From the NCBI GenBank assembly GCA_035444565.1, contig DAOMOX010000001.1:386335-450334 (forward strand): a stretch of 64,000 nucleotides of DNA, read 5' to 3'. The notes below the pieces were generated by a model that was not told the origin of the DNA, ran no database searches, and saw nothing but the letters and a program-made list of their open reading frames with translations. Positions 50,495 through 61,763 of the stretch are shown here, in pieces. Made by a program: the position numbers and the translations under genes. Positions within the stretch are counted from its first letter, which is position 1. Every line of letters starts with the position of its first letter. Origin of the DNA: Candidatus Dojkabacteria bacterium. GTDB taxonomy: Bacteria > Patescibacteriota > Dojkabacteria > B142 > OLB20.

Positions 50495-51067
50495 TTGGAT
50501 CATTTATTGCCCAATGAAAAAGAGTTCGTAGAAAAAGCGCTTGTAAGTCTTGATGAATTTGTTCCTCTATATAAGTTTTATCAGAAAAAGATTTTCAATT
50601 ATTGTCTGCACAGACTTCCTACCGAAGTGGATGCCGAAGATACAACCTCTCAAGTATTTGTTAATGCACTTAATTCTTTCGCCAACAAACAATATGTGAG
50701 CTCAGATGAATATACTTTCAAAGCGTGGCTTTTTCGTATTGCCCATAATTTGATTGTTGATTTTTATCGAGGAAAATCTCGCTATAAAATAATTGAGATT
50801 GATGAAAACATTGTTGAAGATGAAGCTACTTGTCAAGAGATTGAAGAAACGCTGGACTTGGAAAGGAGTTCGAACAAGATTTTGGCAATCCTGAAAAGAT
50901 TTGATGACTCTACACAGAGTATTTTCGTACTTAGATTTAGAGAAGATATGAATTTTGAAGAAATTGCACAGGTGATAAGTCTAGACCTTTCTACAACAAA
51001 GATGAAATATTACCGGGCATTAAATCTGATAAAAAAAATAATTGAAAAAGAAAAATTTATTAATTAA
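50495..51067 (+). CDS. ECF-type RNA polymerase sigma factor (sigma-70 family, group 4)
   Basis: Region 2 'FKAWLFRIAHNLIVDFYRGKSR' and region 4 HTH 'NFEEIAQVISLDLSTTKMKYYRALNLIKK'. 190 aa. Confidence 0.8.
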   Translation: MDHLLPNEKEFVEKALVSLDEFVPLYKFYQKKIFNYCLHRLPTEVDAEDTTSQVFVNALNSFANKQYVSSDEYTFKAWLFRIAHNLIVDFYRGKSRYKIIEIDENIVEDEATCQEIEETLDLERSSNKILAILKRFDDSTQSIFVLRFREDMNFEEIAQVISLDLSTTKMKYYRALNLIKKIIEKEKFIN

Positions 51068-51069
51068 TT

Positions 51070-54000
51070 GTGACTAAAATCATGCCAAATGAGTATAAAG
51101 AAGTAGAAGAAGTTCTCTCAAAAGCGCTAAAGTCTGATCAGGATTTGAGACCTGATGCCAAAAGTGCAATGGATGAGAGAGTTAATAATACTATTCATAC
51201 TTTAAAAAACATGAAAAACGAAAACGTTCCAGAGAAAATTAGTTTTTTCTCAAAAGTTAAACTTGGTTTTTTTGCTACAAAAAAAAGAAGATTTGCCACA
51301 TTTTCTGTTGTCTCTCTTTTGTTACTCCCACTTATCATCATTACGCTTTTTGTTTTGACGAATGGGAATATTCCGATTTTCAGAAGGCAAGAAAATCTTA
51401 AAGCGGCAAGTGTCGATTTTGCGGCATCTAAAATTTCTGGAGATGGTGTGTCTCAAGATTCAGAATTTATCCTAAGAACTAAAGCGATTTATACAAATGT
51501 TGAATTGCAGGAAAAATTGAAGATTAGTCCTGCAATTAACTATGAGGTTAAAAAAATTTCCGAGGGATATAAGATATCACCGTTATCAAATCTTCAAAAA
51601 AATGTGCTTTATGAAGTCAAATTAGAGGATAGTGATGTGGATTTGGATTGGAACTTCCGTGTAGAACCCGGGTTTACAGTATTAGGTCACTCTCCAGCAG
51701 AAAACGCCCCAATCAATTCAGTGATTGAACTTAACTTTAATTATTCGGATATAGATTTAGATAGTATTCGTTCTGCATTCAAATCTAACCCTGTTATAAA
51801 TATTAAAGAAATTAAACAAGAAGGAAGAACTGTGATATTGATACCAGATAACCCTCTAACACTGAATTCTTCGTATTCATTGTATTTAAATAATACTGTG
51901 AAGAGAGAAAACGGTGAAAGTTTAAGTGTTCCGTATCAAGCTTATCTTTCTACCTATGACTCATCACAAGTGGATAACTACTCTCCTTCGATTTATTTCG
52001 GATCAACGGAAGGAAGAGAGAAATTGTTAGGATCGGAAAGAAAGGTTGCATTCAGCGTTTCTAATTATGTGTCGAATGTAAAAGGCAACGTGAAGATGTA
52101 TAAAGTTAAAAATGATATGTTCCTTGAGGCCACTAAAGAGTACTTTTCAGTAAATAGTTGGTATTCAACTTACCGTTTGGAAAGTAAGTACTTAGAAGAA
52201 ATAAAATCTGAAGAATTCACTCCTTCTCCCGATGTAGTTGTTACAGTTCCTGAAATTAATATGGGCGAAATCATTTACGTAGAAGCAAGTTACATGGGGG
52301 TTGTAAGAGGTGGTTATTATTTAACTACTGACTTATTAAGTCATATGACTTATATGCAAAATGAATTGGTATTAAATGTCTTTGATTCTCAAGGCAAAAT
52401 AATAAATGAAGGGACTGCAGATATTATTTACAAAGATAATAATAATCAAGTTCAATCAAAGTCTTTTCCAATTACAGGGATAGTTAGAATTCCTAAATCC
52501 GACTTGCCAGATCAGGATTCCATTTTGGGAGCACTGATTAATGCCAAGGGTGATAGGTTAATGTTAAGTATGACATCAAACTACCCACCAGGAACATATT
52601 GGTTTGGAGGTGATTACGAAGGTGATTCAGAATATAACAAAAACATCTTTAGTTACTTTATGATGGATAAACCTGTGTACACTGAAGGAGATAAGGTCAG
52701 ATTCAAGACCCAGTTTAGGTATTCAGAAGATTTTACTAGCTTCCAACCGTATGATGTTTCTGGACTTGAGTACGTGATTTACTATGGTGGGTCAGTTGTG
52801 GGTAAAGCGAAGCCCGAATATAACAAAGAATTAGGGTATATTACAGGAGAGTTCAACATACCAGGTGTGGGTGATAGCTATATGTCTGGGTCAATTCAGG
52901 TTGTGAGGGGTAATAACGTCATAGCTACAAAAAATTTCCCTATTCGGGAATATGTTAAACCCCAATATACGGTTTCTATTAGTGTTGATGATTCTAATAA
53001 AATATATCACCCAGGTGATGAAGTTGAATTTGCCGTAAAGGTGAATGATCTTGCAGGGAACCCATGGTCGGGGGGTGAAATCCAGGCAGACTTCGGATAT
53101 ACGGAGATGTATCGTTACTCTGGAATGAATATGACCAATTTGACTGCAAATAGCTATTTGACCAAATCAGTTGACAAAAAAACAGTTAAACTAGACTCAG
53201 GCGGCCATGTAAATCTTGTCTACAAAATAACAAACCCTGAAGTATCAGATACAAGCGACTTCTTCTCATCTGTCTTGCAGGTCAACATTGACAAACATGC
53301 AACAAAATCATATGGCGTTAAGTCAACCTTAGGAGACATTACTGTAATCGCAGAAACAACTGACAATAATGTGAGAAAGAAGTTGGGTGAAGAGGTTAAA
53401 ATCCAAGTCAAGACAGTAGATGTGCAAACTTTGACAGGTGTACCAAGTACTATAGACAAGATTGAGGTGGTTCGCCATTGGTCCGAGAAAATTCCAAGGA
53501 CATATTACAATTCAACTACACGCACCAACGAAACTACCTATGACTATGTTCAACATGAGGACCTGATAGAAACTCAGTACAATCTTAAAACTGATGATAA
53601 CGGTAATTTGGAATTGGTGAAGAAATATGACCAAGATGGTTCATACTTCTTTAGGTTTGAATTCAAAGATAGGAACAATAGACTGGTAAAATTCTATTCT
53701 TCGCTTTTCTACCTAAATGGTGATGACGATGATAGCAGTATACAGGACAATTCTCCAATAATTTACACAGATAAAAGTGTTTATGAAATTGGTGATAAGG
53801 TCAACGTTAGAGTTGAATTCCCAGATAATTTCTTGGATGGACGAGAAGCTTACATCTTCGTTTATAAAGATAAGATATACATGGAAGAGAAAATCTCGAT
53901 TACAGAGAATGTTTATAACTATTCCTATGATTTAACAAAAGAGCTTAGTCCGCAGGCAGGGATTCGGTTAGTTTATACTTTGCCAGTGAGCGACTTTGGT

Positions 54001-56391
54001 ACTGAATTTGCAAATGAAAAATATAGAGTTGTTGACTCCGTGGAGCAACATCTTGTGGTGAGAAGAGATGAAGATTTGTTAAATGTAGAAATTTCTAGTG
54101 AGAAGAAGGAATATTTCCCAGGAGAAGAAGTGAAAATGAAAATCAAAGTGACCGACGAAAACGGTAGATCGGTCTCCGGTGCAAATTTGAATACCCGAGT
54201 ATTTGATAAGTCATTGCTGGCAGTCCTCGACCAGGATAAATATCAGAAAGATATATACGATAAAGTTTTTGGGGTTTATAAAAGAATTGGAAGTCTCTTC
54301 ACTTTTCCAAAATCGCCTTATAGAGGTGATGGTGGAGATGGAGGTAGAGGTCCTGACGGAATCAGAAGAAATTTTGACGATGTTGCGACTTTCCAATCAA
54401 ATTTGATTACTGATGATTCCGGAAATGCCGAACTTAACTTTACTATTCCTGATTCTATAACTACATGGATTGTGGATGTTGATGCTTTTACAAAGATGTT
54501 GAATGTAGGCAATACTTTTGTTGAGATTTCAACGAATAAAGAGGTTATCGTGAATGGAACTTTCCCAGAAACAGTTAGAGTGGGTGATAAATTCTCTCCA
54601 AAGGTCGTTGTATACAATCACACGGACACTTCAGTAACAGGTAAATTGGTGATTACTGCCGGGGAAGGATTGGTTCTTTCAAATAGTGAGCAAAATATCG
54701 TCATTGAACCCAGAACAGGGGGAATATTTAATTTTGATGCTGAGGTAAAACAGGCAAAATCTGCGGGTACAATATTAACAATCAAGTTACTAGGAGAAGA
54801 TGGTAGTGTAATCGATGGAATTGAAAAAACCATTGAAATTAGGGTACCTGGTTTTCCAACAACATCTGTTGAATCAAAAAAACTTAGCTCAGGTGAAAAC
54901 GAATTGAAATTTAACATTGAAGGTGATCTTGAAAGAACATCAGCAAATTTGATGATTTCACCAAACTCATACAGATATGCATTCTTTACAAGAGATTTAA
55001 TAGTAAATTCTTCGGAAGAAAGAGCTTCATCAGTAGTCCATAACCTTGCAATATATGAAAATTATGACAAAGGTCAAAGTGTGATTCCGATGAGCAAAGA
55101 TTCAATATTAGACCAGTCCATTTTAAGCATTGCTGCTTTACTAGAAACGAGAAATGAAGATGGGGGTTATGGAATGTTTGGATATAGCACTTCTGACATT
55201 AAAAACACCTCCTATGTGGCATATGCCCTTGGAAAGGGAAATCAGTCCGGAGCAGGGAATAGTTATGATGAGAAGGAATTGCTCACTCAATATCTAGTTG
55301 AACAAGTTGTCACAACCGAAGGCAAGGTGAACAAATCTACGACTCCTTATGATAAGACCATGGCAGTATGGGCTCTAAGTTACATTGATCCATCAAAGGC
55401 AATCAACTATGCACAAATGATCAAAAGTCAGTTGAATGGAGACGAGACTATGGCAGAACTATCACTTCTGGCAGACGCTCTGTATACGTCGGGAAGCACT
55501 GGGGATGCTCGAGCTGTCACACAAGAGATGCTTTCAAAATTACAAACAAATAATTTGAATCAGATGTTTATTGAAGAATATCAACCTTACTCAGAGAATA
55601 AATATTTCGCAAATATCTTTCTTTGGAAGATGCTAAATGTATTAGACCTAGATGATAATTCCGAAGAAAAAGTCGGGAATTGGATAATGGCTAATACAGA
55701 AACAGATTCGGCTTTTGAATCAGCACTAATTAACGAGATGTTATTGAATTATAGAGTGCAAGAACAGTCTGTAGATGCTGAAATTGAGCTTTATGTAAAC
55801 GAGACAGAAGTATTTAAAGGTAATATCTCAGAATTTGGTGAAAGCTTCCTTCTAACTAATCTAAAAGGAGGAGAGAATGTTGTTAGAATAACCTCCAACA
55901 AAGATGGGCTGAGATATCTTCTGAAACTCAGTGAGGTGACTCAAAGTCAAATTACATCGACAGACGATTTTACGGTTAAAACTGAGTACATGCCTTTAGA
56001 AACAATGATTAGTTCTTCTACAATCCCCTCAAGCGAGTACACATTGGTGAGACTTACCGTTACTGCCAAAAAAGAACACAAAGGATATCATGTTAAGACT
56101 TATCTTCCTGCTGGTGTTACTGTTGGTAGTGCTATCCCTAGACTGGATTCCTCAGAAGCATATCGTGATTGGGTCTACAGTAAGAACTATTCAAATAAAT
56201 GGCCACAGGTATCAAGAGGATCGCTAACTTTTGATGCGTATTATAGTGAAAATAGTAATACTCAGGTATTTGAATATCTCCTTGTAACGGACCACAAAGG
56301 GGTCTATGGAACTGATGGAACTTATGTTTACTACGACGATGGTTCAGGTTTTAAGGGTTATGATGCAGGGAAAACGATTACAATAAACTAA
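51070..56391 (+). CDS. giant single-pass membrane protein with anti-sigma-like cytoplasmic N-terminus and alpha-2-macroglobulin-like extracytoplasmic region (multiple MG domains, thioester-less)
   Basis: About 85-aa N-terminal segment then TM 'FATFSVVSLLLLPLIIITLFVLT'. Repeated MG-domain starts 'KPVYTEGDKVRFK', 'KIYHPGDEVEFAVKV', 'KSVYEIGDKVNVRVEF' and 'KEYFPGEEVKMKIKV'. A2M signature 'RRNFDDVATFQSNLITDDSGNAELNFTIPDSITTWIVDVDAF'. No Cys anywhere in the 1773 aa. Starts 3 nt after the sigma factor stop. Confidence 0.8.
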   Translation: MTKIMPNEYKEVEEVLSKALKSDQDLRPDAKSAMDERVNNTIHTLKNMKNENVPEKISFFSKVKLGFFATKKRRFATFSVVSLLLLPLIIITLFVLTNGNIPIFRRQENLKAASVDFAASKISGDGVSQDSEFILRTKAIYTNVELQEKLKISPAINYEVKKISEGYKISPLSNLQKNVLYEVKLEDSDVDLDWNFRVEPGFTVLGHSPAENAPINSVIELNFNYSDIDLDSIRSAFKSNPVINIKEIKQEGRTVILIPDNPLTLNSSYSLYLNNTVKRENGESLSVPYQAYLSTYDSSQVDNYSPSIYFGSTEGREKLLGSERKVAFSVSNYVSNVKGNVKMYKVKNDMFLEATKEYFSVNSWYSTYRLESKYLEEIKSEEFTPSPDVVVTVPEINMGEIIYVEASYMGVVRGGYYLTTDLLSHMTYMQNELVLNVFDSQGKIINEGTADIIYKDNNNQVQSKSFPITGIVRIPKSDLPDQDSILGALINAKGDRLMLSMTSNYPPGTYWFGGDYEGDSEYNKNIFSYFMMDKPVYTEGDKVRFKTQFRYSEDFTSFQPYDVSGLEYVIYYGGSVVGKAKPEYNKELGYITGEFNIPGVGDSYMSGSIQVVRGNNVIATKNFPIREYVKPQYTVSISVDDSNKIYHPGDEVEFAVKVNDLAGNPWSGGEIQADFGYTEMYRYSGMNMTNLTANSYLTKSVDKKTVKLDSGGHVNLVYKITNPEVSDTSDFFSSVLQVNIDKHATKSYGVKSTLGDITVIAETTDNNVRKKLGEEVKIQVKTVDVQTLTGVPSTIDKIEVVRHWSEKIPRTYYNSTTRTNETTYDYVQHEDLIETQYNLKTDDNGNLELVKKYDQDGSYFFRFEFKDRNNRLVKFYSSLFYLNGDDDDSSIQDNSPIIYTDKSVYEIGDKVNVRVEFPDNFLDGREAYIFVYKDKIYMEEKISITENVYNYSYDLTKELSPQAGIRLVYTLPVSDFGTEFANEKYRVVDSVEQHLVVRRDEDLLNVEISSEKKEYFPGEEVKMKIKVTDENGRSVSGANLNTRVFDKSLLAVLDQDKYQKDIYDKVFGVYKRIGSLFTFPKSPYRGDGGDGGRGPDGIRRNFDDVATFQSNLITDDSGNAELNFTIPDSITTWIVDVDAFTKMLNVGNTFVEISTNKEVIVNGTFPETVRVGDKFSPKVVVYNHTDTSVTGKLVITAGEGLVLSNSEQNIVIEPRTGGIFNFDAEVKQAKSAGTILTIKLLGEDGSVIDGIEKTIEIRVPGFPTTSVESKKLSSGENELKFNIEGDLERTSANLMISPNSYRYAFFTRDLIVNSSEERASSVVHNLAIYENYDKGQSVIPMSKDSILDQSILSIAALLETRNEDGGYGMFGYSTSDIKNTSYVAYALGKGNQSGAGNSYDEKELLTQYLVEQVVTTEGKVNKSTTPYDKTMAVWALSYIDPSKAINYAQMIKSQLNGDETMAELSLLADALYTSGSTGDARAVTQEMLSKLQTNNLNQMFIEEYQPYSENKYFANIFLWKMLNVLDLDDNSEEKVGNWIMANTETDSAFESALINEMLLNYRVQEQSVDAEIELYVNETEVFKGNISEFGESFLLTNLKGGENVVRITSNKDGLRYLLKLSEVTQSQITSTDDFTVKTEYMPLETMISSSTIPSSEYTLVRLTVTAKKEHKGYHVKTYLPAGVTVGSAIPRLDSSEAYRDWVYSKNYSNKWPQVSRGSLTFDAYYSENSNTQVFEYLLVTDHKGVYGTDGTYVYYDDGSGFKGYDAGKTITIN

Positions 56392-56433: not shown

Positions 56434-56742
56434 CATACTCATCTTTGTTTACCATAAATTGAGATTAAACAAAACTTGAGTTATGCTACAATTCCTTAGT
56501 AAGGAAGGGTGTCCAGCCTTCGTCAAGACTTCGGCTGGTAAACTGAGATTGTCCCTCCCTTCGATGAAGGGTGGGGTGAAGCCGAAAGAGTTCAAATAAT
56601 GGAAGGGTCGCATCCCTCTACCCCCTGATAAAGTTAGGGGTTCGAGGGACAAGTAGACTCAAGATAATAAGTAAAACCATTTTGGAAGGGTGTCTGAGTT
56701 TGCCCCGCCTTGGCGGGGTGAAGTCGAAAGAGTTTAAATATT

Positions 56743-56829
56743 GGAAGGGTCGCATAGTGGTCTAGTGCCCCGCTCTCGAAAAGCGGTATCGGGGAAACCT
56801 GATCGTGGGTTCAAATCCCACCCCTTCCG
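56743..56829 (+). tRNA. tRNA-Ser (anticodon CGA), class II with long variable arm
   Basis: Hand-folded cloverleaf. Acceptor GGAAGGG/CCCTTCC, discriminator G73, 3-bp D-stem GCA/TGC. Anticodon stem CCGCT/AGCGG with loop CU-CGA-AA. About 18-nt variable arm. T-arm GTGGG-TTCAAAT-CCCAC. No encoded CCA. Confidence 0.85.
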
Positions 56830-57070
56830 AGACTGTTGATGAATCGAACTAAGCGATGATGAAGCATACAGTCGTTGGGAACGGCCTTGCGCTGTTTCGC
56901 CACGATTAGATTCCGCAGAGCAAAACAAAACGTGGGCGGGAACAACCTGGCGCTGTTCCGTTCTACTTCGCTGAAGCTTCGTAGAGCATAGCTATTCTCT
57001 ATAAGTACAAGTTATATAATCCCCCTAGAAGTAATTTGAAAAATAAGATAAAGTTATCGAGAGGTGCTAT

Positions 57071-57388
57071 GTGAATAATTATTTGCTTTTTGATTTTACC
57101 AATATGAGTGTCATCAATCATTTCAAACCTAACAAAACCAGGATTAAAATTTTCTTAATAGTTTTTTTACTGTTTATTTTTCTCAATATCCTAATAATTT
57201 ATAGATTTGGTCCTTTCTGGGATAGGCCTTTATCTATCGGTTATCCGGTAGATATTTATAAGTTGGGTTGTGGGATGTCTCCATTGTTAACAGGTGCGGT
57301 ATGTCTAACTGGTTTCAGTGCTCTAGGCTTACTAATCAACGTGATTTTTTGGTATCTAGTCTCTACATTTATTAAGAGAAGCAAATAA
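57071..57388 (+). CDS. small hypothetical membrane protein
   Basis: 105 aa with 2-3 hydrophobic helices. First gene after the tRNA island. Confidence 0.4.
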   Translation: MNNYLLFDFTNMSVINHFKPNKTRIKIFLIVFLLFIFLNILIIYRFGPFWDRPLSIGYPVDIYKLGCGMSPLLTGAVCLTGFSALGLLINVIFWYLVSTFIKRSK

Positions 57389-57437
57389 ACGCTAAAAAAA
57401 TTGTATAGTTAACTAAATAGTTATTTTTTGGAATATT

Positions 57438-58088
57438 ATGATAAAACTACTATTTTTCACCACAAAACTGCTTATATTAGTATTTTTTATATATATAATT
57501 TCACATATTACTTCCTGGTTCTCTCCACGCAGGTACCTGGGTGATCCTACATGGTGGATCCTCATCTATCGTATTATTTCTTCTTTCTATTGTTTAAATA
57601 TAGGTTTAATTATCTTGAAAAAACTGAGCCCAGATCTGAGGAAACAGAAGATCATAATCATGATAATCATATTCTTACTTACAATCTTCATATTTGATTG
57701 GCAAAGACTTGTTGACCGAACCATAAATGACAGAACCGAAATTGTTGAAGAAACAAGTACTCAGATTCTTTGCTCTAAAGAAAAATTAGGCAACAGAAGG
57801 ATATGTGATAGCAAAACAGATATAGAGACAGTATTTTTAGAGGATTCTGATACTTTAGTAATTAGATATTTTTTCCTAAACGATATTATGCCCGAACTTG
57901 AATCAATATGGGGTAGAAAACCCATGGAAATCAGACTAAAAGAGATTACTGTTTCTGGGAGTATTGGTTCTCCACCATGGCAATTGGTCGAAATAAAAAT
58001 TGATTTTAAAGAAGATGTCGTCTTGGATGAAACTGAAATCTATGTTGAGCATATATTAATGGGGGGATATGAGATTCCAATTGAGTAA
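57438..58088 (+). CDS. hypothetical membrane protein
   Basis: 216 aa. Three N-terminal TM segments, then a soluble domain. Confidence 0.45.
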   Translation: MIKLLFFTTKLLILVFFIYIISHITSWFSPRRYLGDPTWWILIYRIISSFYCLNIGLIILKKLSPDLRKQKIIIMIIIFLLTIFIFDWQRLVDRTINDRTEIVEETSTQILCSKEKLGNRRICDSKTDIETVFLEDSDTLVIRYFFLNDIMPELESIWGRKPMEIRLKEITVSGSIGSPPWQLVEIKIDFKEDVVLDETEIYVEHILMGGYEIPIE

Positions 58089-58152
58089 TTGGTTATCCTT
58101 TTTCTAAAATTGTTGTTATAATTTTCATAAGTGACTTGTTATTCACAAAACC

Positions 58153-59298
58153 TTGAATAAACTCAAGACAATCTTTAAATCCATTCATATACCATATCTA
58201 TCAAGTATTATACTTAACCTCATTATTAGTTATTCTTTATATATTGTTATCTCGGTATCGTCATCTGCTGGAACAAGTCCATTTCCTCGAGCAGTCGAAT
58301 CCCAATATCTCCCTATTTACGGGTTGATTCTCTCATTTATTAATCCGATGTATATAGTTACTTACATTTACATGATTAAGAATCATAAGAATTTAGAGAA
58401 TAGTGCATTTTATGGATTAAATATTGTTCAGATTAGTATTTATTTCTCAACATTAATTACGATTGCAATTCAGTTGCTTATTTATCTTGAAACATATTGG
58501 AATCAATATTTTCCTATTAATATGTTGACTAATCTGACAACTCTGGCAACCATTAACTTGGATTTGGCTTTGAGATCCTCTGCCTATGTCTATTCATTAA
58601 TGAATATTCAAGATGGCCCTATTATTATGTCTTCTTTGGGACTCGCTCTAATCACAATTTTTGCACCCATTTTCTTTATTTTCTATGGTTTGGTATTTTA
58701 CCTTAGACATAGGAAATATAAAGTTCAATCTGAATCGCAGCAAAGGTTATTCAAGATAATTTCTATCCTTGTTTCGTTAAATTTGATTATTATATTCGGA
58801 ATTATTCTGTTTAATAGCATTAATAAAAACGGACAGTTCCATAAGGCCATTGACAAAGGGGATGTTTCTGCTTGTGAGAAATTATTCAATCAAGACTTGA
58901 GAGAGAAATGTGTTAGCGAGTATGTATTGGATAAACCATACTTCCATGAATGCAATTCCATATCGGACACTATGAGTTTGTATGATTATTGTATAGAGGA
59001 GGTATCAAAGATAAGTAATGATTGGAAAGGGTGTTATGAATTAAACGAGAATCAAAGAGTGAAAGAATGTATTAATGATATTGCTATAAGAAATAACTAT
59101 TTTCTCGATACTGAAGTCTGTGATGCGATGGCTCCAGACGAAGATGACATATATTTTAGGATGGGAGAAACAATAGCTTGTTATGCCAAGATTGCTTATA
59201 TTAAGAAAGATCATTCATTATGCAATGAGCTGAAGGGGTACGATGCTAGGGCATGTTATGATGAATACTTGTCATTATGGGAGGAGGATAATCTTTAG
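58153..59298 (+). CDS. polytopic membrane protein with C-terminal Cys-rich extracytoplasmic domain (paralog 1)
   Basis: N-terminal ~220 aa with about 6 TM. C-terminal ~160 aa has 13 Cys. 'CYAKIAYIKKDHSLCNELKGYDARACYDEY' is conserved in paralog 2. Confidence 0.6.
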   Translation: MNKLKTIFKSIHIPYLSSIILNLIISYSLYIVISVSSSAGTSPFPRAVESQYLPIYGLILSFINPMYIVTYIYMIKNHKNLENSAFYGLNIVQISIYFSTLITIAIQLLIYLETYWNQYFPINMLTNLTTLATINLDLALRSSAYVYSLMNIQDGPIIMSSLGLALITIFAPIFFIFYGLVFYLRHRKYKVQSESQQRLFKIISILVSLNLIIIFGIILFNSINKNGQFHKAIDKGDVSACEKLFNQDLREKCVSEYVLDKPYFHECNSISDTMSLYDYCIEEVSKISNDWKGCYELNENQRVKECINDIAIRNNYFLDTEVCDAMAPDEDDIYFRMGETIACYAKIAYIKKDHSLCNELKGYDARACYDEYLSLWEEDNL

Positions 59299-59385
59299 TG
59301 GGCGATTCCTAAATATTTCAATATAATTAAGACATTATGATAGATAATTGTTAGAATTTCTTATAACTAATACAACTTCTACGTA

Positions 59386-60528
59386 GTGAACAGACTAAAA
59401 AGAATCCTCTCATCAATCAAAACCCCATATATTTTAAGTGTTCTCCCAAATTTATTAATAACTATCTTTTTCTGGTTTATGGTTAGTTTCTTCGGAGATA
59501 CTGCCACTACAACTATTTCTGACTTCTTGTTATTACCCTTATTCCTACTGGGAGGTACAATTCTCACAATTATAAATCCAATGTACTTAGTAACATATTT
59601 ATATATGAGAAGAAATCACAAAAGATTTGATAATAGTGTGTACTATGGATTTAATATAGTTTTACTGAGTTTGTTTTTTTCTGCCCTTATTACTGTATTT
59701 GTTGAGTTAATTCAGGTCACTAAATTATTCCTCGACTATACAATAATTGAGAATTTCCTTAATAATCCCACTAGTTGGTTTCTTCTGGGAACGGATCTGA
59801 CTGTTAGGAATATGCTCTACACCAATTTTATGCTAGATATGTTTTCCGGAATAGCTGATTCTGAATGGCTCCTCGGTCTTATGGCACTAACATATTTATT
59901 ACCACTGTTCTTTATACTTTACGGATTTGTATATATTGTAAGACATTTCAAATTTCGAGTCTTTAATCAAGGGCAAAAGAGATTATCAATTGCATTGGTA
60001 ATTCTACTTTCTTTGACTTCCGTTTTATTAATAATGACTCCTATAATACATTCAAAATATTTAGATGGCATGGTTTCAAAGGCTATAAATATGAACGATA
60101 TAAAGTTTTGTAGAGATATGAATGATTATGAGATGACCAGAGAATGCATAGTAAAATATTCTTCAGAGAACAAAAGTTTTGTAGCATGTAATGCATTGTC
60201 TGATAATTACATTGAAATGAGGGCTTGTATTGATGAGGTTTCAATACACTCCAAGGACTGGAGGGAATGTTATTCATTAAAAGAAGATGTGCAAAAGTGT
60301 ATATACGATGTTGCTCGCAGAAATGATTACTTCTTGGATATAGAAATTTGTAATGTATTAACATTAGACGAAGAGAACCCAAATTCGGGGGGATATTATT
60401 CAGCGATGTGTTATGCGAAAATCGGATATGAAACGAAAGACTTCGGATTATGTAGTAGATTACAAACAGAAGCAGATTACGAAACTTGCATTCGAGAGTT
60501 GGATTCGTTGAGACGATATAATTACTAA
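59386..60528 (+). CDS. polytopic membrane protein with C-terminal Cys-rich extracytoplasmic domain (paralog 2)
   Basis: Co-linear with 58153-59298 ('MNRLKRILSSIKTPYILSVLPNLLIT' vs 'MNKLKTIFKSIHIPYLSSIILNLIIS'). Conserved Cys spacing, including 'CYAKIGYETKDFGLCSRLQTEADYETCIRE'. Confidence 0.6.
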   Translation: MNRLKRILSSIKTPYILSVLPNLLITIFFWFMVSFFGDTATTTISDFLLLPLFLLGGTILTIINPMYLVTYLYMRRNHKRFDNSVYYGFNIVLLSLFFSALITVFVELIQVTKLFLDYTIIENFLNNPTSWFLLGTDLTVRNMLYTNFMLDMFSGIADSEWLLGLMALTYLLPLFFILYGFVYIVRHFKFRVFNQGQKRLSIALVILLSLTSVLLIMTPIIHSKYLDGMVSKAINMNDIKFCRDMNDYEMTRECIVKYSSENKSFVACNALSDNYIEMRACIDEVSIHSKDWRECYSLKEDVQKCIYDVARRNDYFLDIEICNVLTLDEENPNSGGYYSAMCYAKIGYETKDFGLCSRLQTEADYETCIRELDSLRRYNY

Positions 60529-60582
60529 GTTAGGGAATATATAAGGTTCGTATTTCTTTCAAAAGAAACTATAATTAAACAA

Positions 60583-61038
60583 ATGAAATTCCAGACTCTC
60601 ACTCAAAACTACTATGAAGAATCAGTACAGCTACTGTTAGACTTGGAATTAGATACGCGAGAGGAAATTGAACACCACCTTGTTGATATGGATGCACATC
60701 TGATTTGTCTGGATGGCGATACGGTTGTGGGGATAGTTGGGTGGTACAAGGATAACGTGAATTATGCAAACGAAGCCATGGGAGATTTGTTTCCTGGAGA
60801 AGAAGCATTTTGGGTCGGATTCTTCGGTGTTAAATGTGAATATCAAAATAAAGGAATTGGAACTCAACTCCTCTCAAGGATGGAAGAAAATATAAGAGAA
60901 AGAGGTGCTAATGAATGGTGGGTTTCTTCGGTCCCCGAAGCGAAAGAATTCTATGAAAAGAAAGGGTTTCCCGTTGTTTGTATTGGGGAGATTAGTGGAA
61001 ATAAGAAGTTTTTTATGAGGAAGAAGTTATCTGATTAA
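60583..61038 (+). CDS. GNAT-family N-acetyltransferase
   Basis: 'FGVKCEYQNKGIGTQLLSRMEENIRE' and '...AKEFYEKKGF'. Confidence 0.7.
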   Translation: MKFQTLTQNYYEESVQLLLDLELDTREEIEHHLVDMDAHLICLDGDTVVGIVGWYKDNVNYANEAMGDLFPGEEAFWVGFFGVKCEYQNKGIGTQLLSRMEENIRERGANEWWVSSVPEAKEFYEKKGFPVVCIGEISGNKKFFMRKKLSD

Positions 61039-61094: not shown

Positions 61095-61763
61095 ATGATT
61101 ACTTTTGATCACCTATTTATAATCCTTAAACCGACTATCATTGTAGTGTGCCTTTTTCTAATTTTTTCAGTTGTATTCTATCTGATTAAGAAATGGGTTA
61201 GGGTTTTGATTCTAGGAAGAAAATTTAAATTCCAAAATCAATATTCAACGGATAGACAAATGCTAGATAGACTTACAGATTTATCACCAAGTGAGTTTGA
61301 GGGTTATATTGGAAATCTGTACAGGAAACTTGGTTATGATATAAAAGTAGTTGGAGGTAGAAGTGATGGAGGTATAGATGTTATTGCAGATAAAGATGGG
61401 GTTCGATCCTATATACAATGTAAGCGTTATAAAACTAGCACGGTCTCAGTTCACGATGTGAGAGATTTCTACGGTGCTTTGGTAAACAAATTAACTAATA
61501 GCAAAGGTGTTTTCGTAACCACAAATATCTTTTCAAAAGAAGCAGAACTATTTTCTGAAGGGAAGCCGATTGAATTGCTAGATGGTTTCAAATTAATAAA
61601 ACTGATCAAGTTAACGGAAAGTAATAAAAAGGTAGTTATTCCTAAAGTAACACAATCTGTATGTCCAAAATGTGGTAGTAGTTTAATATTAAAAAGTGGT
61701 AAATACGGGGAATTCTATGGGTGTACAAAATATCCAGAATGTAAGTTTACAAAATCTACTTAG
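61095..61763 (+). CDS. membrane-anchored Mrr-cat-type restriction endonuclease-fold protein with C-terminal topoisomerase-type C4 zinc ribbon
   Basis: N-terminal TM. 'SPSEFEGYIGNLYRKLGYDIKVVGGRSDGGIDVIADKDGVRSYIQCKRYK' is the Mrr_cat (PD-(D/E)xK) pattern. C-terminus 'CPKCGSSLILKSGKYGEFYGCTKYPECKF'. Confidence 0.7.
   Translation: MITFDHLFIILKPTIIVVCLFLIFSVVFYLIKKWVRVLILGRKFKFQNQYSTDRQMLDRLTDLSPSEFEGYIGNLYRKLGYDIKVVGGRSDGGIDVIADKDGVRSYIQCKRYKTSTVSVHDVRDFYGALVNKLTNSKGVFVTTNIFSKEAELFSEGKPIELLDGFKLIKLIKLTESNKKVVIPKVTQSVCPKCGSSLILKSGKYGEFYGCTKYPECKFTKST

What the first reader, a model, noticed from the sequence alone, without database searches (positions are those of the whole stretch)
56440..56742. 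GC-rich structured island with duplicated 5' tRNA-Ser fragments upstream of the intact tRNA-Ser
In an otherwise AT-rich genome this ~300-nt stretch is GC-rich. It contains the motif GGAAGGGT (the first 8 nt of the tRNA-Ser) four times, at 56503, 56601, 56684 and 56743. It also contains a ~43-nt direct repeat 'GGGGTGAAG(C/T)CGAAAGAGTT(C/T)AAATA(A/T)TGGAAGGGTCGCAT' at 56570-56613 and 56715-56757. Each repeat is preceded by a stable hairpin (CCCTTC-GAT-GAAGGG at 56556-56570 and CCCCGC-CTTG-GCGGGG near 56703-56718). The copy at 56601 starts exactly like the tRNA (GGAAGGGTCGCAT) but continues into a long hairpin (CCCTCTACCCCCT...AGGGGTTCGAGGG) instead of a cloverleaf. Three readings are possible: a tandem duplication of the tRNA locus with one copy decayed into a tRNA pseudogene; scars of a tRNA-targeted integration; or an unrecognised structured ncRNA using tRNA-like 5' ends.
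Basis: seen in the sequence. Interest (0 to 1): 0.55.

Follow-up and report, generated by a model that had tools for sequence, protein, structure and literature searches.

The report
Scars of tRNA-nesting GIY-YIG elements
The GC-rich stretch is not a new RNA gene: it is left-over, hairpin-studded 5' pieces of the tRNA-Ser gene, apparently from small GIY-YIG nuclease elements that insert into tRNA genes and rebuild them, an element type I found described in no paper.

Summary
GGAAGGGT occurs four times within 250 nt, there is a 44-nt repeat at 91% identity, and the region is 50% GC against 30-40% nearby. Two independent assemblies match the window exactly.

The organism is a Candidatus Dojkabacteria (CPR) bacterium. 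A relative (L007) has one canonical tRNA-Ser(CGA) at this spot, directly after the same promoter. In the window, that ancestral 5' half (acceptor strand plus D arm) survives twice as fragments with GC hairpins in the D arm. A 13-nt copy of the replacement 5' half also survives. The working tRNA (56743-56830) uses the replacement 5' half.

Strains of the same species differ in unit number and hairpin content. One strain carries an 87-aa GIY-YIG gene right after the tRNA.

In other bacteria, related GIY-YIG genes lie between hairpin-bearing tRNA 5' fragments and the intact tRNA. They often form tandem arrays of 2-3 units, and two hairpin stems match the window's.

Best reading (0.7): ORF-less relics of tRNA-nesting GIY-YIG elements, plus one unit duplication. 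A structured ncRNA is not supported. Integrase scars are not supported. No paper describing such elements was found.

The parts
56484..56492 (+). Extended -10 promoter element TGCTACAAT of the tRNA transcription unit. The transcript should start a few nt before 56503.
   Evidence: The same TATGCTACAATTCCT precedes the tRNA 5' end in relatives L007, L138 and L005. Window 56478-56513 is 92% identical to L007. The promoter scan finds a site at 56459-56487.
56503..56590 (+). A1: first displaced copy of the ancestral tRNA-Ser 5' half. It reads GGAAGGGTGTC | hp1 | TAAA CTGAGATTG | hp2' | TGAAGCCGAAAGAG.
   Evidence: It starts at the same distance from the promoter as the canonical tRNA of L007, GGAAGGGTGTCTGAGCGGTCGAAAGAG. 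It is 91-94% identical to the equivalent pieces in L138 and L005.
56513..56538 (+). hp1: GC hairpin CCAGCC-14 nt-GGCTGG, inserted in the D stem of A1.
   Evidence: It is one of only 6 GC-rich perfect hairpins in the 64 kb. The stem core CAGCC/GGCTG matches the first hairpin of the GIY-YIG elements in L143, L144 and L146, and the second hairpin in L156.
56552..56576 (+). hp2': hairpin TCCCTCCCTTC-GAT-GAAGGGTGGGG in the D loop of A1.
   Evidence: Same-species alleles carry GAAGGGAGGGA (L131-134) or GAAGGGCGGGA (L135) as the 3' arm.
56591..56600 (+). Linker 1, TTCAAATAAT.
   Evidence: It sits where the RBS and GIY-YIG ORF sit in the 5'-type elements of other taxa. That it marks a lost ORF is inferred.
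56601..56613 (+). B1: 13-nt fragment of the replacement 5' half, GGAAGGGTCGCAT, cut at the start of the D loop.
   Evidence: It is identical to the first 13 nt of the working tRNA.
56614..56648 (+). hp3: bipartite hairpin CCCTCTACCCCCT-GATAAAGTT-AGGGGTTCGAGGG, inserted where the D loop of B1 would begin.
   Evidence: It is unique to this allele; only L129 and L130 also have it.
56649..56683 (+). AT-rich spacer between unit 1 and unit 2. It may be what remains of an element body.
   Evidence: No GIY-YIG remnant is detectable by tblastn.
56684..56732 (+). A2: second displaced copy of the ancestral 5' half. It reads GGAAGGGTGTCTGAG TTTG | hp2 CCCCGCCTTGGCGGGG (56703-56718) | TGAAGTCGAAAGAG.
   Evidence: Removing the inserted TTTG-hp2-TGAA, linker 2 and the B half (restoring the CG of L007) and joining A2 to the rest of the tRNA gives a tRNA-Ser(CGA) by ARAGORN. 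The hp2 stem core CCGCC/GGCGG matches the second hairpin of L143 and L146. The L005 version TCCGCCTTGGCGGGA is nearly identical to L146's TCCGCCTTTGGCGGA.
56733..56742 (+). Linker 2, TTTAAATATT.
   Evidence: The equivalent 9-10-nt linker is present in L005, L138 and L131-135.
56743..56830 (+). Working tRNA-Ser(CGA). A new 5' half (B: GGAAGGGTCGCATAGTGGTCTAGTGC, with a 4-bp D stem) is joined to the ancestral anticodon arm, long variable arm, T arm and acceptor 3' strand. CCA is not encoded.
   Evidence: ARAGORN. Rfam RF00005 at 54.8 bits. Window 56773-56888 is 89% identical to the L007 tRNA 3' part plus its downstream sequence.
56832..56898 (+). Native downstream hairpin (56832-56872) and terminator-like hairpin 1 (56877-56898).
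   Evidence: Homologous to L007 6259-6316.
56900..56959 (+). Segment from a second tRNA-Ser(CGA) lineage: hairpin CCACG...CGTGG plus terminator-like hairpin 2. This produces the 38-nt, 71% direct repeat found downstream.
   Evidence: In L005 and L131 this segment follows a displaced tRNA 3' fragment, TCTCGCCCCTTCC(G/T)CCA. The repeat is family D2.
56961..56987 (+). Solo left-end hairpin of the 3'-type GIY-YIG element, TTCTACTTCGCTGAAGCTTCGTAGAGC.
   Evidence: The same motif directly follows the tRNA and precedes the GIY-YIG ORF in L131 and L138; L139 and L146 carry close variants of it. In L131 it occurs twice, at 196-225 and again at the position that matches the window.

Best explanation
The stretch 56503-56742 is the roughly 240-nt 5' leader of the tRNA-Ser(CGA) gene. 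It is made of displaced 5' portions of that gene and is not an RNA gene of its own.

The ancestral gene began at 56503, right after the promoter, as it still does in the relative L007.

Small GIY-YIG nuclease elements nest in tRNA genes. They put GC-rich hairpins into a tRNA loop (D or T). They also bring a fresh copy of the tRNA 5' portion at their far end. The tRNA is therefore rebuilt downstream, and the old 5' portion stays behind as a hairpin-bearing fragment.

One such event left A (the old acceptor strand plus D arm, with hairpins), then a linker, then B (the new 5' half). The ORF was later lost, leaving 10 nt.

A second event, or a recombinational amplification, in the D loop of the rebuilt tRNA duplicated the whole 5' portion. 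This gave unit 1 (A1-linker-B1-hp3-spacer), unit 2 (A2-linker-tRNA) and the 44-nt repeat.

On the 3' side there are relics of a second kind of GIY-YIG element, which sits after the tRNA and duplicates its 3' end.

Today RNase P presumably cuts at 56743 and the leader is discarded.

Shown: the homology of the fragments, the empty and occupied alleles, the GIY-YIG gene in a same-species allele, and the same architecture with ORFs elsewhere.

Inferred: that an ORF once lay between A and B, that the nuclease cuts tRNA genes, and that spread and tandem growth happen by break repair.
For: 1. L007 (neighbouring A2M-like protein 72% identical) has a canonical tRNA-Ser(CGA) directly after the same promoter. 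Its first 15 nt and its AGAG-ending D arm match the window's A copies. Its anticodon, variable and T arms match the window's tRNA.

2. A2 without its hairpin, joined to the rest of the tRNA, is called tRNA-Ser(CGA) by ARAGORN.

3. Same-species alleles differ in unit number and hairpins. L135 looks like a one-unit recombinant, L131-134 have a third hairpin pair, and L128 has point changes. L131 carries an 87-aa GIY-YIG ORF 158 nt after the tRNA, followed by a displaced tRNA 3' fragment.

4. L138 is the occupied counterpart of empty L007, with flanks 86% and 97.6% identical. It has A+hairpins, B-tRNA, the left-end motif, a GIY-YIG ORF, a displaced 3' fragment, and then native downstream sequence.

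5. Homologues of that GIY-YIG protein down to 56% identity, from four distinct protein clusters, lie 88-197 nt after a tRNA-Ser(CGA) and are followed by a copy of its last 14-17 nt.

6. A related GIY-YIG branch (37-44% identity) lies between a hairpin-bearing tRNA fragment and the intact tRNA:
- L143 and L146: tRNA-Ser(GGA), two hairpins in the D loop.
- L156: tRNA-Ser(CGA), two hairpins in the T loop.
- L163: tRNA-Arg(TCG), a 20-nt palindrome in the D loop.
The ORF runs into or ends within 4 nt of the intact tRNA's 5' end.

7. Tandem arrays occur: 2 units in L144 against 1 in L143, at least 2 in L153, and 3 in L163.

8. The hairpin stem cores CAGCC/GGCTG and CCGCC/GGCGG occur in that order in both the window and L143/L146. 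Such hairpins are not dispersed in the window.

9. Family-wide evidence: 49 of 120 homologues end in an RRGAGVV-like peptide, which is a translated tRNA-Ser 5' end. Three read on through hairpin fragments. Twenty of 118 top representatives carry T-loop-derived peptides in their extensions, against 1 hit in 9168 core residues.

10. The catalytic GIY-YIG residues are invariant across the family.
Against: - The window has no GIY-YIG ORF or detectable remnant.
- No allele with an ORF between A and B was found in Dojkabacteria; all have a 9-10-nt linker. The 5'-side link therefore rests on shared architecture and hairpin similarity.
- The B half has a different D arm from the A half. In the other taxa the rebuilt 5' portion is identical to the fragment.
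- In L143, L146, L156 and L163 the rebuilt tRNA keeps the uninterrupted loop. A simple 'insertion destroys the target' homing model therefore does not explain self-immunity.
- These proteins are a bare catalytic domain of about 86 aa with no evident DNA-binding domain. No cleavage activity or specificity is known.
- The A half is 91-94% identical between species whose flanking coding DNA is 66-73% identical. That could mean selection on the leader rather than recent transfer.
Confidence: 0.7

Rival explanations
1. The leader is a functional structured RNA. For example, it could be a regulatory or decoy leader whose GGAAGGG copies compete for the tRNA's 3' acceptor strand and tune RNase P processing. 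It would be kept by selection, whatever its origin.
For: The A half plus hairpins is 91-94% identical between species whose neighbouring coding DNA is only 66-73% identical. The precursor folds better than shuffled sequence (z -2.3 for the leader, -3.65 with the tRNA). In the predicted fold, the 3' acceptor strand pairs with the first GGAAGGG rather than with the tRNA's own 5' end.
Against: There is no Rfam match at any threshold. Strains of one species differ in unit number, hairpin number and hairpin sequence. The hairpin differences weaken pairing rather than compensate. The close relative L007 manages with no leader at all. High identity is equally explained by spread of the element between lineages, and the locus is a mosaic of two tRNA lineages.
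Confidence: 0.12
2. Plain tandem duplication of the 5' part of the tRNA gene by slippage or unequal crossing-over, followed by decay. No mobile element would be involved on the 5' side.
For: The 44-nt repeat spans the idiosyncratic A-linker-B junction, so units 1 and 2 do descend from one unit by duplication. L135 looks like the product or the substrate of unequal recombination between the units.
Against: This does not explain several things. A and B are different 5' halves. GC hairpins sit exactly in tRNA loops. The same hairpin stems occur in GIY-YIG elements of other bacteria. The arrangement co-occurs with GIY-YIG genes or their end motifs in L131, L138, L005 and the window.
Confidence: 0.12
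3. Scars (att sites) of an integrase-borne island or prophage that targeted the tRNA-Ser gene. The membrane-protein cluster at 57071-61038 would be its cargo.
For: The region after the tRNA differs in every relative. The 4-kb cluster is absent from L003, L005, L007 and L138. L003 and L004 have a large serine recombinase and a terminase about 1 kb beyond the Mrr gene.
Against: The ORFs scanned between 47.6 and 63.6 kb include no integrase or recombinase. No second copy of the tRNA 3' end exists anywhere in the 64 kb. The repeats are of the 5' end and lie upstream, within 240 nt, with no cargo between them.
Confidence: 0.04
4. Assembly artefact: collapsed or chimeric repeats from mixed strains.
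For: Many short-read contigs break inside this locus: L001, L128 and L131-L135.
Against: Two assemblies from different projects are 100% identical to the window across the whole locus.
Confidence: 0.02

Closest known systems
Free-standing GIY-YIG homing endonucleases in phage tRNA clusters (T-even SegB)
   Same: A GIY-YIG nuclease gene sits next to tRNA genes. SegB drives tandem segmental amplification of a tRNA-plus-segB unit by homologous recombination, and microhomology was noted between a tRNA 5' end and the segB 3' end (PMC13096335). Presence/absence polymorphism and mosaic flanks are typical of free-standing homing genes (PMC2988022 and PMC2790892 abstracts).
   Different: SegB is phage-borne. 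From my own knowledge, it also has a DNA-binding region. The proteins here are about 86 aa of catalytic domain only, are chromosomal in CPR and other bacteria, and were not found in phage collections. SegB loci are not reported to have hairpin-bearing partial tRNA copies or an ORF that ends inside the tRNA.
Mobile endonuclease ORFs that carry a replacement piece of their target gene (Allomyces mitochondrial atp6-ORF element), and GC-rich double-hairpin elements of fungal mitochondria. Both are cited from memory (Paquin, Laforest and Lang) and were not checked here.
   Same: The element inserts into a conserved gene, brings a copy of part of that gene so function is kept, and leaves the displaced native part beside it. 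GC-rich paired hairpins occur in an AT-rich genome near such elements.
   Different: Those cases are mitochondrial protein genes in which the 3' end is duplicated. Here the targets are bacterial tRNA genes, and either the 5' portion or the last 14-17 nt is duplicated. No paper in the library links double hairpin elements with GIY-YIG.
Insertion sequences in CPR rRNA genes, some with GIY-YIG ORFs (PMC11270868)
   Same: The same bacterial radiation is involved. Structural RNA genes are interrupted by non-intron insertions. All GIY-YIG ORFs lay in insertions that resembled neither intron type. There were many short ORF-less insertions, mostly at the tips or bases of stem-loops.
   Different: That paper covers rRNA genes only; the word tRNA does not occur in its text. 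The insertions lie within the mature RNA region and do not come with a rebuilt gene copy.
tRNA-targeting integrative elements (integrase, attL/attR)
   Same: A tRNA gene is the target. The element supplies the part of the tRNA it displaces. A partial tRNA copy is left as a scar.
   Different: There is no integrase. The 5' portion is duplicated and lies upstream with no cargo. No 3'-end repeat exists in the window.
Group I introns in bacterial tRNA genes
   Same: These are selfish insertions in tRNA genes, sometimes with GIY-YIG homing genes. The proteins here weakly match the N-terminus of TIGR01453, group I intron endonuclease.
   Different: There is no Intron_gpI match. The insertions are in the D or T loop, not the anticodon loop, and are too short for a ribozyme. 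The gene is rebuilt by duplication, not by splicing.

Membership tests
tRNA (Rfam RF00005), long-variable-arm tRNA-Ser | Cloverleaf scoring above the family threshold | tested here: met
   56743-56829 scores 54.8 bits against a gathering score of 29. ARAGORN calls tRNA-Ser at 56742-56830.
tRNA (Rfam RF00005), long-variable-arm tRNA-Ser | Serine identity: long variable arm, G73 discriminator, Ser anticodon | tested here: met
   Anticodon CGA, an 18-nt variable region, and G after CCCTTCC. Charging by SerRS cannot be tested. The 4-bp D stem is unusual for bacterial tRNA-Ser (from my own knowledge).
Truncated tRNA gene fragments (pseudo-tRNA pieces) | Sequence homology to part of a real tRNA of relatives | tested here: met
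   A1 and A2 match the acceptor strand plus D arm of the L007 and L003 tRNAs. B1 matches the first 13 nt of the window's tRNA.
Truncated tRNA gene fragments (pseudo-tRNA pieces) | Cannot form a cloverleaf on their own | tested here: met
   No tRNA call or sub-threshold tRNA match on 56503-56742. No extra copy of the 3' acceptor strand plus T arm exists.
Free-standing GIY-YIG homing-endonuclease element | GIY-YIG nuclease ORF at the locus | tested here: not met
   None in the window; best tblastn E-values are 0.26-1.2, which is noise. It is met in the same-species allele L131 and in L138. The window therefore holds relics at most.
Free-standing GIY-YIG homing-endonuclease element | Presence/absence polymorphism between close relatives, with conserved flanks | tested here: met
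   L131 against L132-134 within the species. L138 against L007, with flanks 86% and 97.6% identical.
Free-standing GIY-YIG homing-endonuclease element | The nuclease cleaves the element-free allele near the insertion point | not testable with these tools
   Needs an enzyme assay. Only conservation of catalytic residues is shown.
Free-standing GIY-YIG homing-endonuclease element | Co-conversion, that is, mosaic flanking sequence | tested here: inconclusive
   Alleles mix two T-arm types, two anticodon-stem types and two downstream segments. This fits co-conversion but there are too few sequences for a formal test.
Integrase-borne island at a tRNA gene | Integrase or recombinase gene next to the tRNA | tested here: not met
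   None among the ORFs scanned between 47.6 and 63.6 kb.
Integrase-borne island at a tRNA gene | Direct repeat of the tRNA 3' end at the far border | tested here: not met
   There is only one copy of the 3' end in 64 kb, even allowing 3 mismatches.
Group I intron in a tRNA gene | Ribozyme core (Rfam Intron_gpI) and anticodon-loop insertion | tested here: not met
   No match down to E = 10. The insertions lie in or next to the D arm.
Any curated structured RNA family (Rfam 15) | Covariance-model match | tested here: not met
   Only chance-level matches far below the gathering scores.

The most novel reading that the evidence does not exclude
A large, undescribed class of selfish elements nests in bacterial tRNA genes. 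Each element consists of an 80-90-aa GIY-YIG nuclease gene, one or two GC hairpins placed in the D or T loop of the displaced tRNA piece, and a replacement tRNA portion. The ORF often ends inside the rebuilt tRNA. The elements grow into tandem arrays by break repair. The hairpin-bearing 5' fragments, as in this window, would be working parts (for example target-site blockers, or the 5' UTR of the nuclease mRNA) and not just debris. That would explain why they stay 91-94% identical across species.
Probability: 0.35. Interest if true: 0.75.

Novelty: new variant of a known kind. Interest (0 to 1): 0.58.

Why it matters
For this window, the odd GC-rich 'island' is explained. The only functional gene in it is the tRNA, and annotators should not call an ncRNA or a second tRNA here.

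More broadly, the locus led to a recurrent architecture that six literature searches did not find described. Tiny GIY-YIG genes are wedged against tRNA-Ser and tRNA-Arg genes in CPR bacteria, Ignavibacteria and others. They come with hairpin-marked partial tRNA copies and tandem arrays.

The protein family is large: 7063 clusters at E <= 1e-10. Many members show translated tRNA sequence in their termini.

If these are true homing elements, they would:
- show how a domain-only nuclease can target conserved RNA genes without killing them;
- explain tRNA-locus assembly breaks in metagenomes;
- explain missed or miscalled tRNAs in CPR genomes;
- give a chromosomal parallel to SegB-driven tRNA amplification in phages.

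Tried and rejected
- Rfam at gathering and at E <= 10 gave only the tRNA.
- Phage DNA and protein searches, and two viral-contig scans, gave nothing relevant. The 16-nt (15 specified bases) leader motif gave only chance hits, none next to GGAAGGG apart from one coincidental hit in L090.
- The genome-contig scan with the A2M alignment returned only one 1.5-kb contig, labelled Saccharibacteria.
- The metagenome scan with the tRNA 3' part returned only one near-identical contig.
- I first read the hp2 difference between the window and L005 as compensatory. On checking the pairing register, it gives a wobble plus a mismatch, so I dropped the claim.
- tblastn for GIY-YIG remnants in the window gave noise only.
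- Hammerhead or other small ribozyme motifs were considered from the CTGAG...GAAA strings. They were rejected because those strings are simply the tRNA-Ser D arm.
- A nested or split functional 'outer tRNA' was considered for L005 and L131. It was rejected because the outer pieces have no anticodon arm of their own.
- NCBIfam, PHROGs, PADLOC and PDB searches gave no informative name for the GIY-YIG proteins or the 57-60 kb cluster.

Full report
OBSERVATION. GGAAGGGT occurs at 56503, 56601, 56684 and 56743, with one other copy in the 64 kb and 1.4 expected for the whole window. A 44-nt direct repeat at 91% identity lies at 56570-56613 and 56712-56755, and its core is unique to these two places. 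GC reaches 0.50-0.52 over 56500-57000 against 0.28-0.40 around it. ARAGORN and Rfam find a single tRNA, tRNA-Ser(CGA) at 56743-56830 with 54.8 bits, and no other family at any threshold. Two assemblies from other projects (ENA ERZ773355, and NCBI GCA_035445885.1) are 100% identical across the locus, so it is not an artefact. Window proteins are identical to proteins of Candidatus Dojkabacteria MAGs, a CPR lineage.

WHAT THE PIECES ARE. The upstream gene is a rare 1773-aa alpha-2-macroglobulin-like protein. Its few homologues gave syntenic loci.

- L007 (A2M-like protein 72% identical) has one canonical tRNA-Ser(CGA) directly after the same TGCTACAAT promoter. Its sequence is GGAAGGGTGTCTGAGCGGTCGAAAGAG-CCACTCTCGAAAAGTGG-TATCGGGGAAACCTGATC-GTGGGTTCAAATCCCAC-CCCTTCCG.
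- The window's two GGAAGGGTGTC copies (A1 at 56503, A2 at 56684) are therefore this ancestral acceptor strand plus D arm, ending in GAAAGAG, with GC hairpins inserted.
- The working tRNA keeps the ancestral anticodon, variable and T arms but has a different 5' half (B: GGAAGGGTCGCATAGTGGTCTAGTGC).
- The copy at 56601 is the first 13 nt of B, cut off by a hairpin.
- Deleting the hairpin, the linker and B from unit 2 restores a sequence that ARAGORN calls tRNA-Ser(CGA).
- L005 and L138 have one A-linker-B unit.
- L003 has an unsplit tRNA with a 57-nt variable region. ARAGORN misses it; Rfam scores it at 49.9 bits.

VARIATION WITHIN THE SPECIES. Contigs that carry the identical downstream 216-aa protein show several alleles.

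- L135 looks like a one-unit recombinant of units 1 and 2.
- L132-134 have a different hp2 and an extra hairpin pair in the D loop.
- L128 has point changes.
- L131 has, right after the tRNA, the motif TTCTACTTCGCTGAAGCTTCGTAGA, then an 87-aa GIY-YIG ORF, then a displaced tRNA 3' fragment.

Many short-read contigs end inside the locus.

THE GIY-YIG LINK.

3'-type elements. Homologues of the L131 protein down to 56% identity, from four distinct protein clusters, lie 88-197 nt after a tRNA-Ser(CGA). The ORF ends in GCCTTGGCGAAGTAG in the three intact clusters (the L138 ORF stops a few codons early), and a copy of the last 14-17 nt of that same tRNA follows directly. The element's left end is the inverted repeat of the ORF's end. 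L138 is the occupied counterpart of L007, with flanks 86% and 97.6% identical.

5'-type elements. A sister branch (37-44% identity) has the design that matters for this finding. A partial tRNA copy carrying GC hairpins in a loop comes first, then the ORF, then the intact tRNA.

- L143 and L146: tRNA-Ser(GGA). The fragment is GGAGAGGTGCAGGAGTGGTTT[TCAGCC..GGCTGA][TCCGCC..GGCGGA]AACTGGCAC. The ORF stops at the TAA in the D loop of the intact tRNA.
- L156 (Ignavibacteriaceae): two hairpins in the T loop of a near-complete tRNA-Ser(CGA) copy.
- L163: three tandem units, each with a 20-nt palindrome in the D loop of a tRNA-Arg(TCG) fragment.
- Arrays: L144 has two units where L143 has one, and L153 has at least two.

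The window's hp1 and hp2 have the same stem cores, in the same order, as the L143/L146 hairpins (CAGCC/GGCTG, then CCGCC/GGCGG). Such hairpins are not dispersed in the window.

Family-wide evidence. The family has 7063 clusters at E <= 1e-10. The catalytic residues are invariant. Forty-nine of 120 homologues end in an RRGAGVV-like peptide, which is a translated tRNA-Ser 5' end. Some read on through hairpin fragments or through whole tRNAs.

MODEL FOR THE WINDOW. The ancestral gene started at 56503.

1. A 5'-type event left A(+hairpins)-linker-B, and the ORF was lost. This step is inferred, because every Dojkabacteria allele seen has only a 9-10-nt linker.
2. A second event or an array expansion in the D loop of B duplicated the whole 5' portion. 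This gave unit 1 (A1, linker, B1, hp3, spacer), unit 2 and the 44-nt repeat.
3. Downstream, 56832-56898 is native sequence shared with L007. 56900-56959 comes from a second tRNA lineage, which in L005 and L131 follows a displaced 3' fragment. 56961-56987 is a solo left end of the 3'-type element.

The leader is probably removed by RNase P. The predicted fold lets any GGAAGGG copy pair with the 3' acceptor strand, so some interference with processing is possible but untested.

RIVALS. A selected functional leader is the main one. The A half is 91-94% identical across species whose flanking coding DNA is 66-73% identical. Against it stand the within-species variability, the non-compensatory hairpin changes, and the leaderless L007. 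Plain duplication explains the 44-nt repeat but not the A/B difference or the shared hairpins. Integrase scars fail on both defining features.

LITERATURE. SegB, a GIY-YIG homing endonuclease in T-even tRNA clusters, drives tandem tRNA-segB amplification (PMC13096335). CPR rRNA genes carry non-intron insertions with GIY-YIG ORFs and many short ORF-less insertions (PMC11270868). No paper in the library describes GIY-YIG elements nested at bacterial tRNA genes with hairpin-marked fragments. Absence from this library does not prove novelty.

LIMITS. Only about ten independent loci were examined. No activity or expression data exist. How a domain-only nuclease finds its target, what the hairpins do, and why rebuilt tRNAs with intact loops are tolerated all remain open.

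Noticed in passing
L003 7331-7456 (also L002, L004): A tRNA-Ser(CGA) with a 57-nt variable region (a 17-bp GC-rich stem plus a 21-nt loop) and encoded CCA. ARAGORN misses it; Rfam's tRNA model scores it at 49.9 bits. It may be another hairpin insertion or the stump of an element in the variable arm.
   Followed up: partly
window 57071-61038: A 4-kb run of five ORFs (105, 216, 381, 380 and 151 aa). The first four have no Pfam or PADLOC match; the last is a GNAT acetyltransferase. It lies between the tRNA region and the Mrr gene and is absent from relatives L003, L005, L007 and L138. The DNA after this tRNA is different in every relative.
   Followed up: partly
window 61095-61763; L132 and L133 3962-4459: The Mrr-type restriction endonuclease with a Top1 zinc ribbon is missing in the same-species alleles L132 and L133. 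There, a different GNAT variant (141 aa) abuts the 118-aa gene directly.
   Followed up: no
L003 and L004 8804-11698: A large serine recombinase and a terminase large subunit (a likely prophage) lie about 1 kb beyond the Mrr gene in the 59% relative. The window has HAD hydrolases there instead.
   Followed up: no
L163 1426-2431 (GCA_947489505.1): Three near-identical tandem units, each made of a tRNA-Arg(TCG) 5' fragment (with the palindrome CCTGCCTGCCGGCAGGCAGG in the D loop) and an 81-aa GIY-YIG ORF. They precede the intact tRNA-Arg, and each ORF ends at TAG inside the tRNA's first 10 nt.
   Followed up: partly
L146-L150 (for example L146 1636-1725): A truncated 29-aa stump of a second, 3'-type GIY-YIG ORF follows the same tRNA-Ser(GGA) that has an intact 5'-type element upstream. 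A further 30-aa stump lies elsewhere in these loci. This shows that ORF decay happens in these elements.
   Followed up: no
window 51070-56391 and 50495-51067: A 1773-aa alpha-2-macroglobulin-like protein is paired with an ECF-type sigma factor in all relatives found. Only four homologues below E 1e-30 turned up among 5.8 billion clusters. One further partial homologue sits on a 1.5-kb contig binned as Saccharibacteria (L006), which may be misbinned.
   Followed up: no
window 56499-56834: In the predicted minimum-energy and centroid folds of the whole precursor, the tRNA's 3' acceptor strand pairs with the first GGAAGGG (56503) and not with its own 5' end (56743).
   Followed up: no
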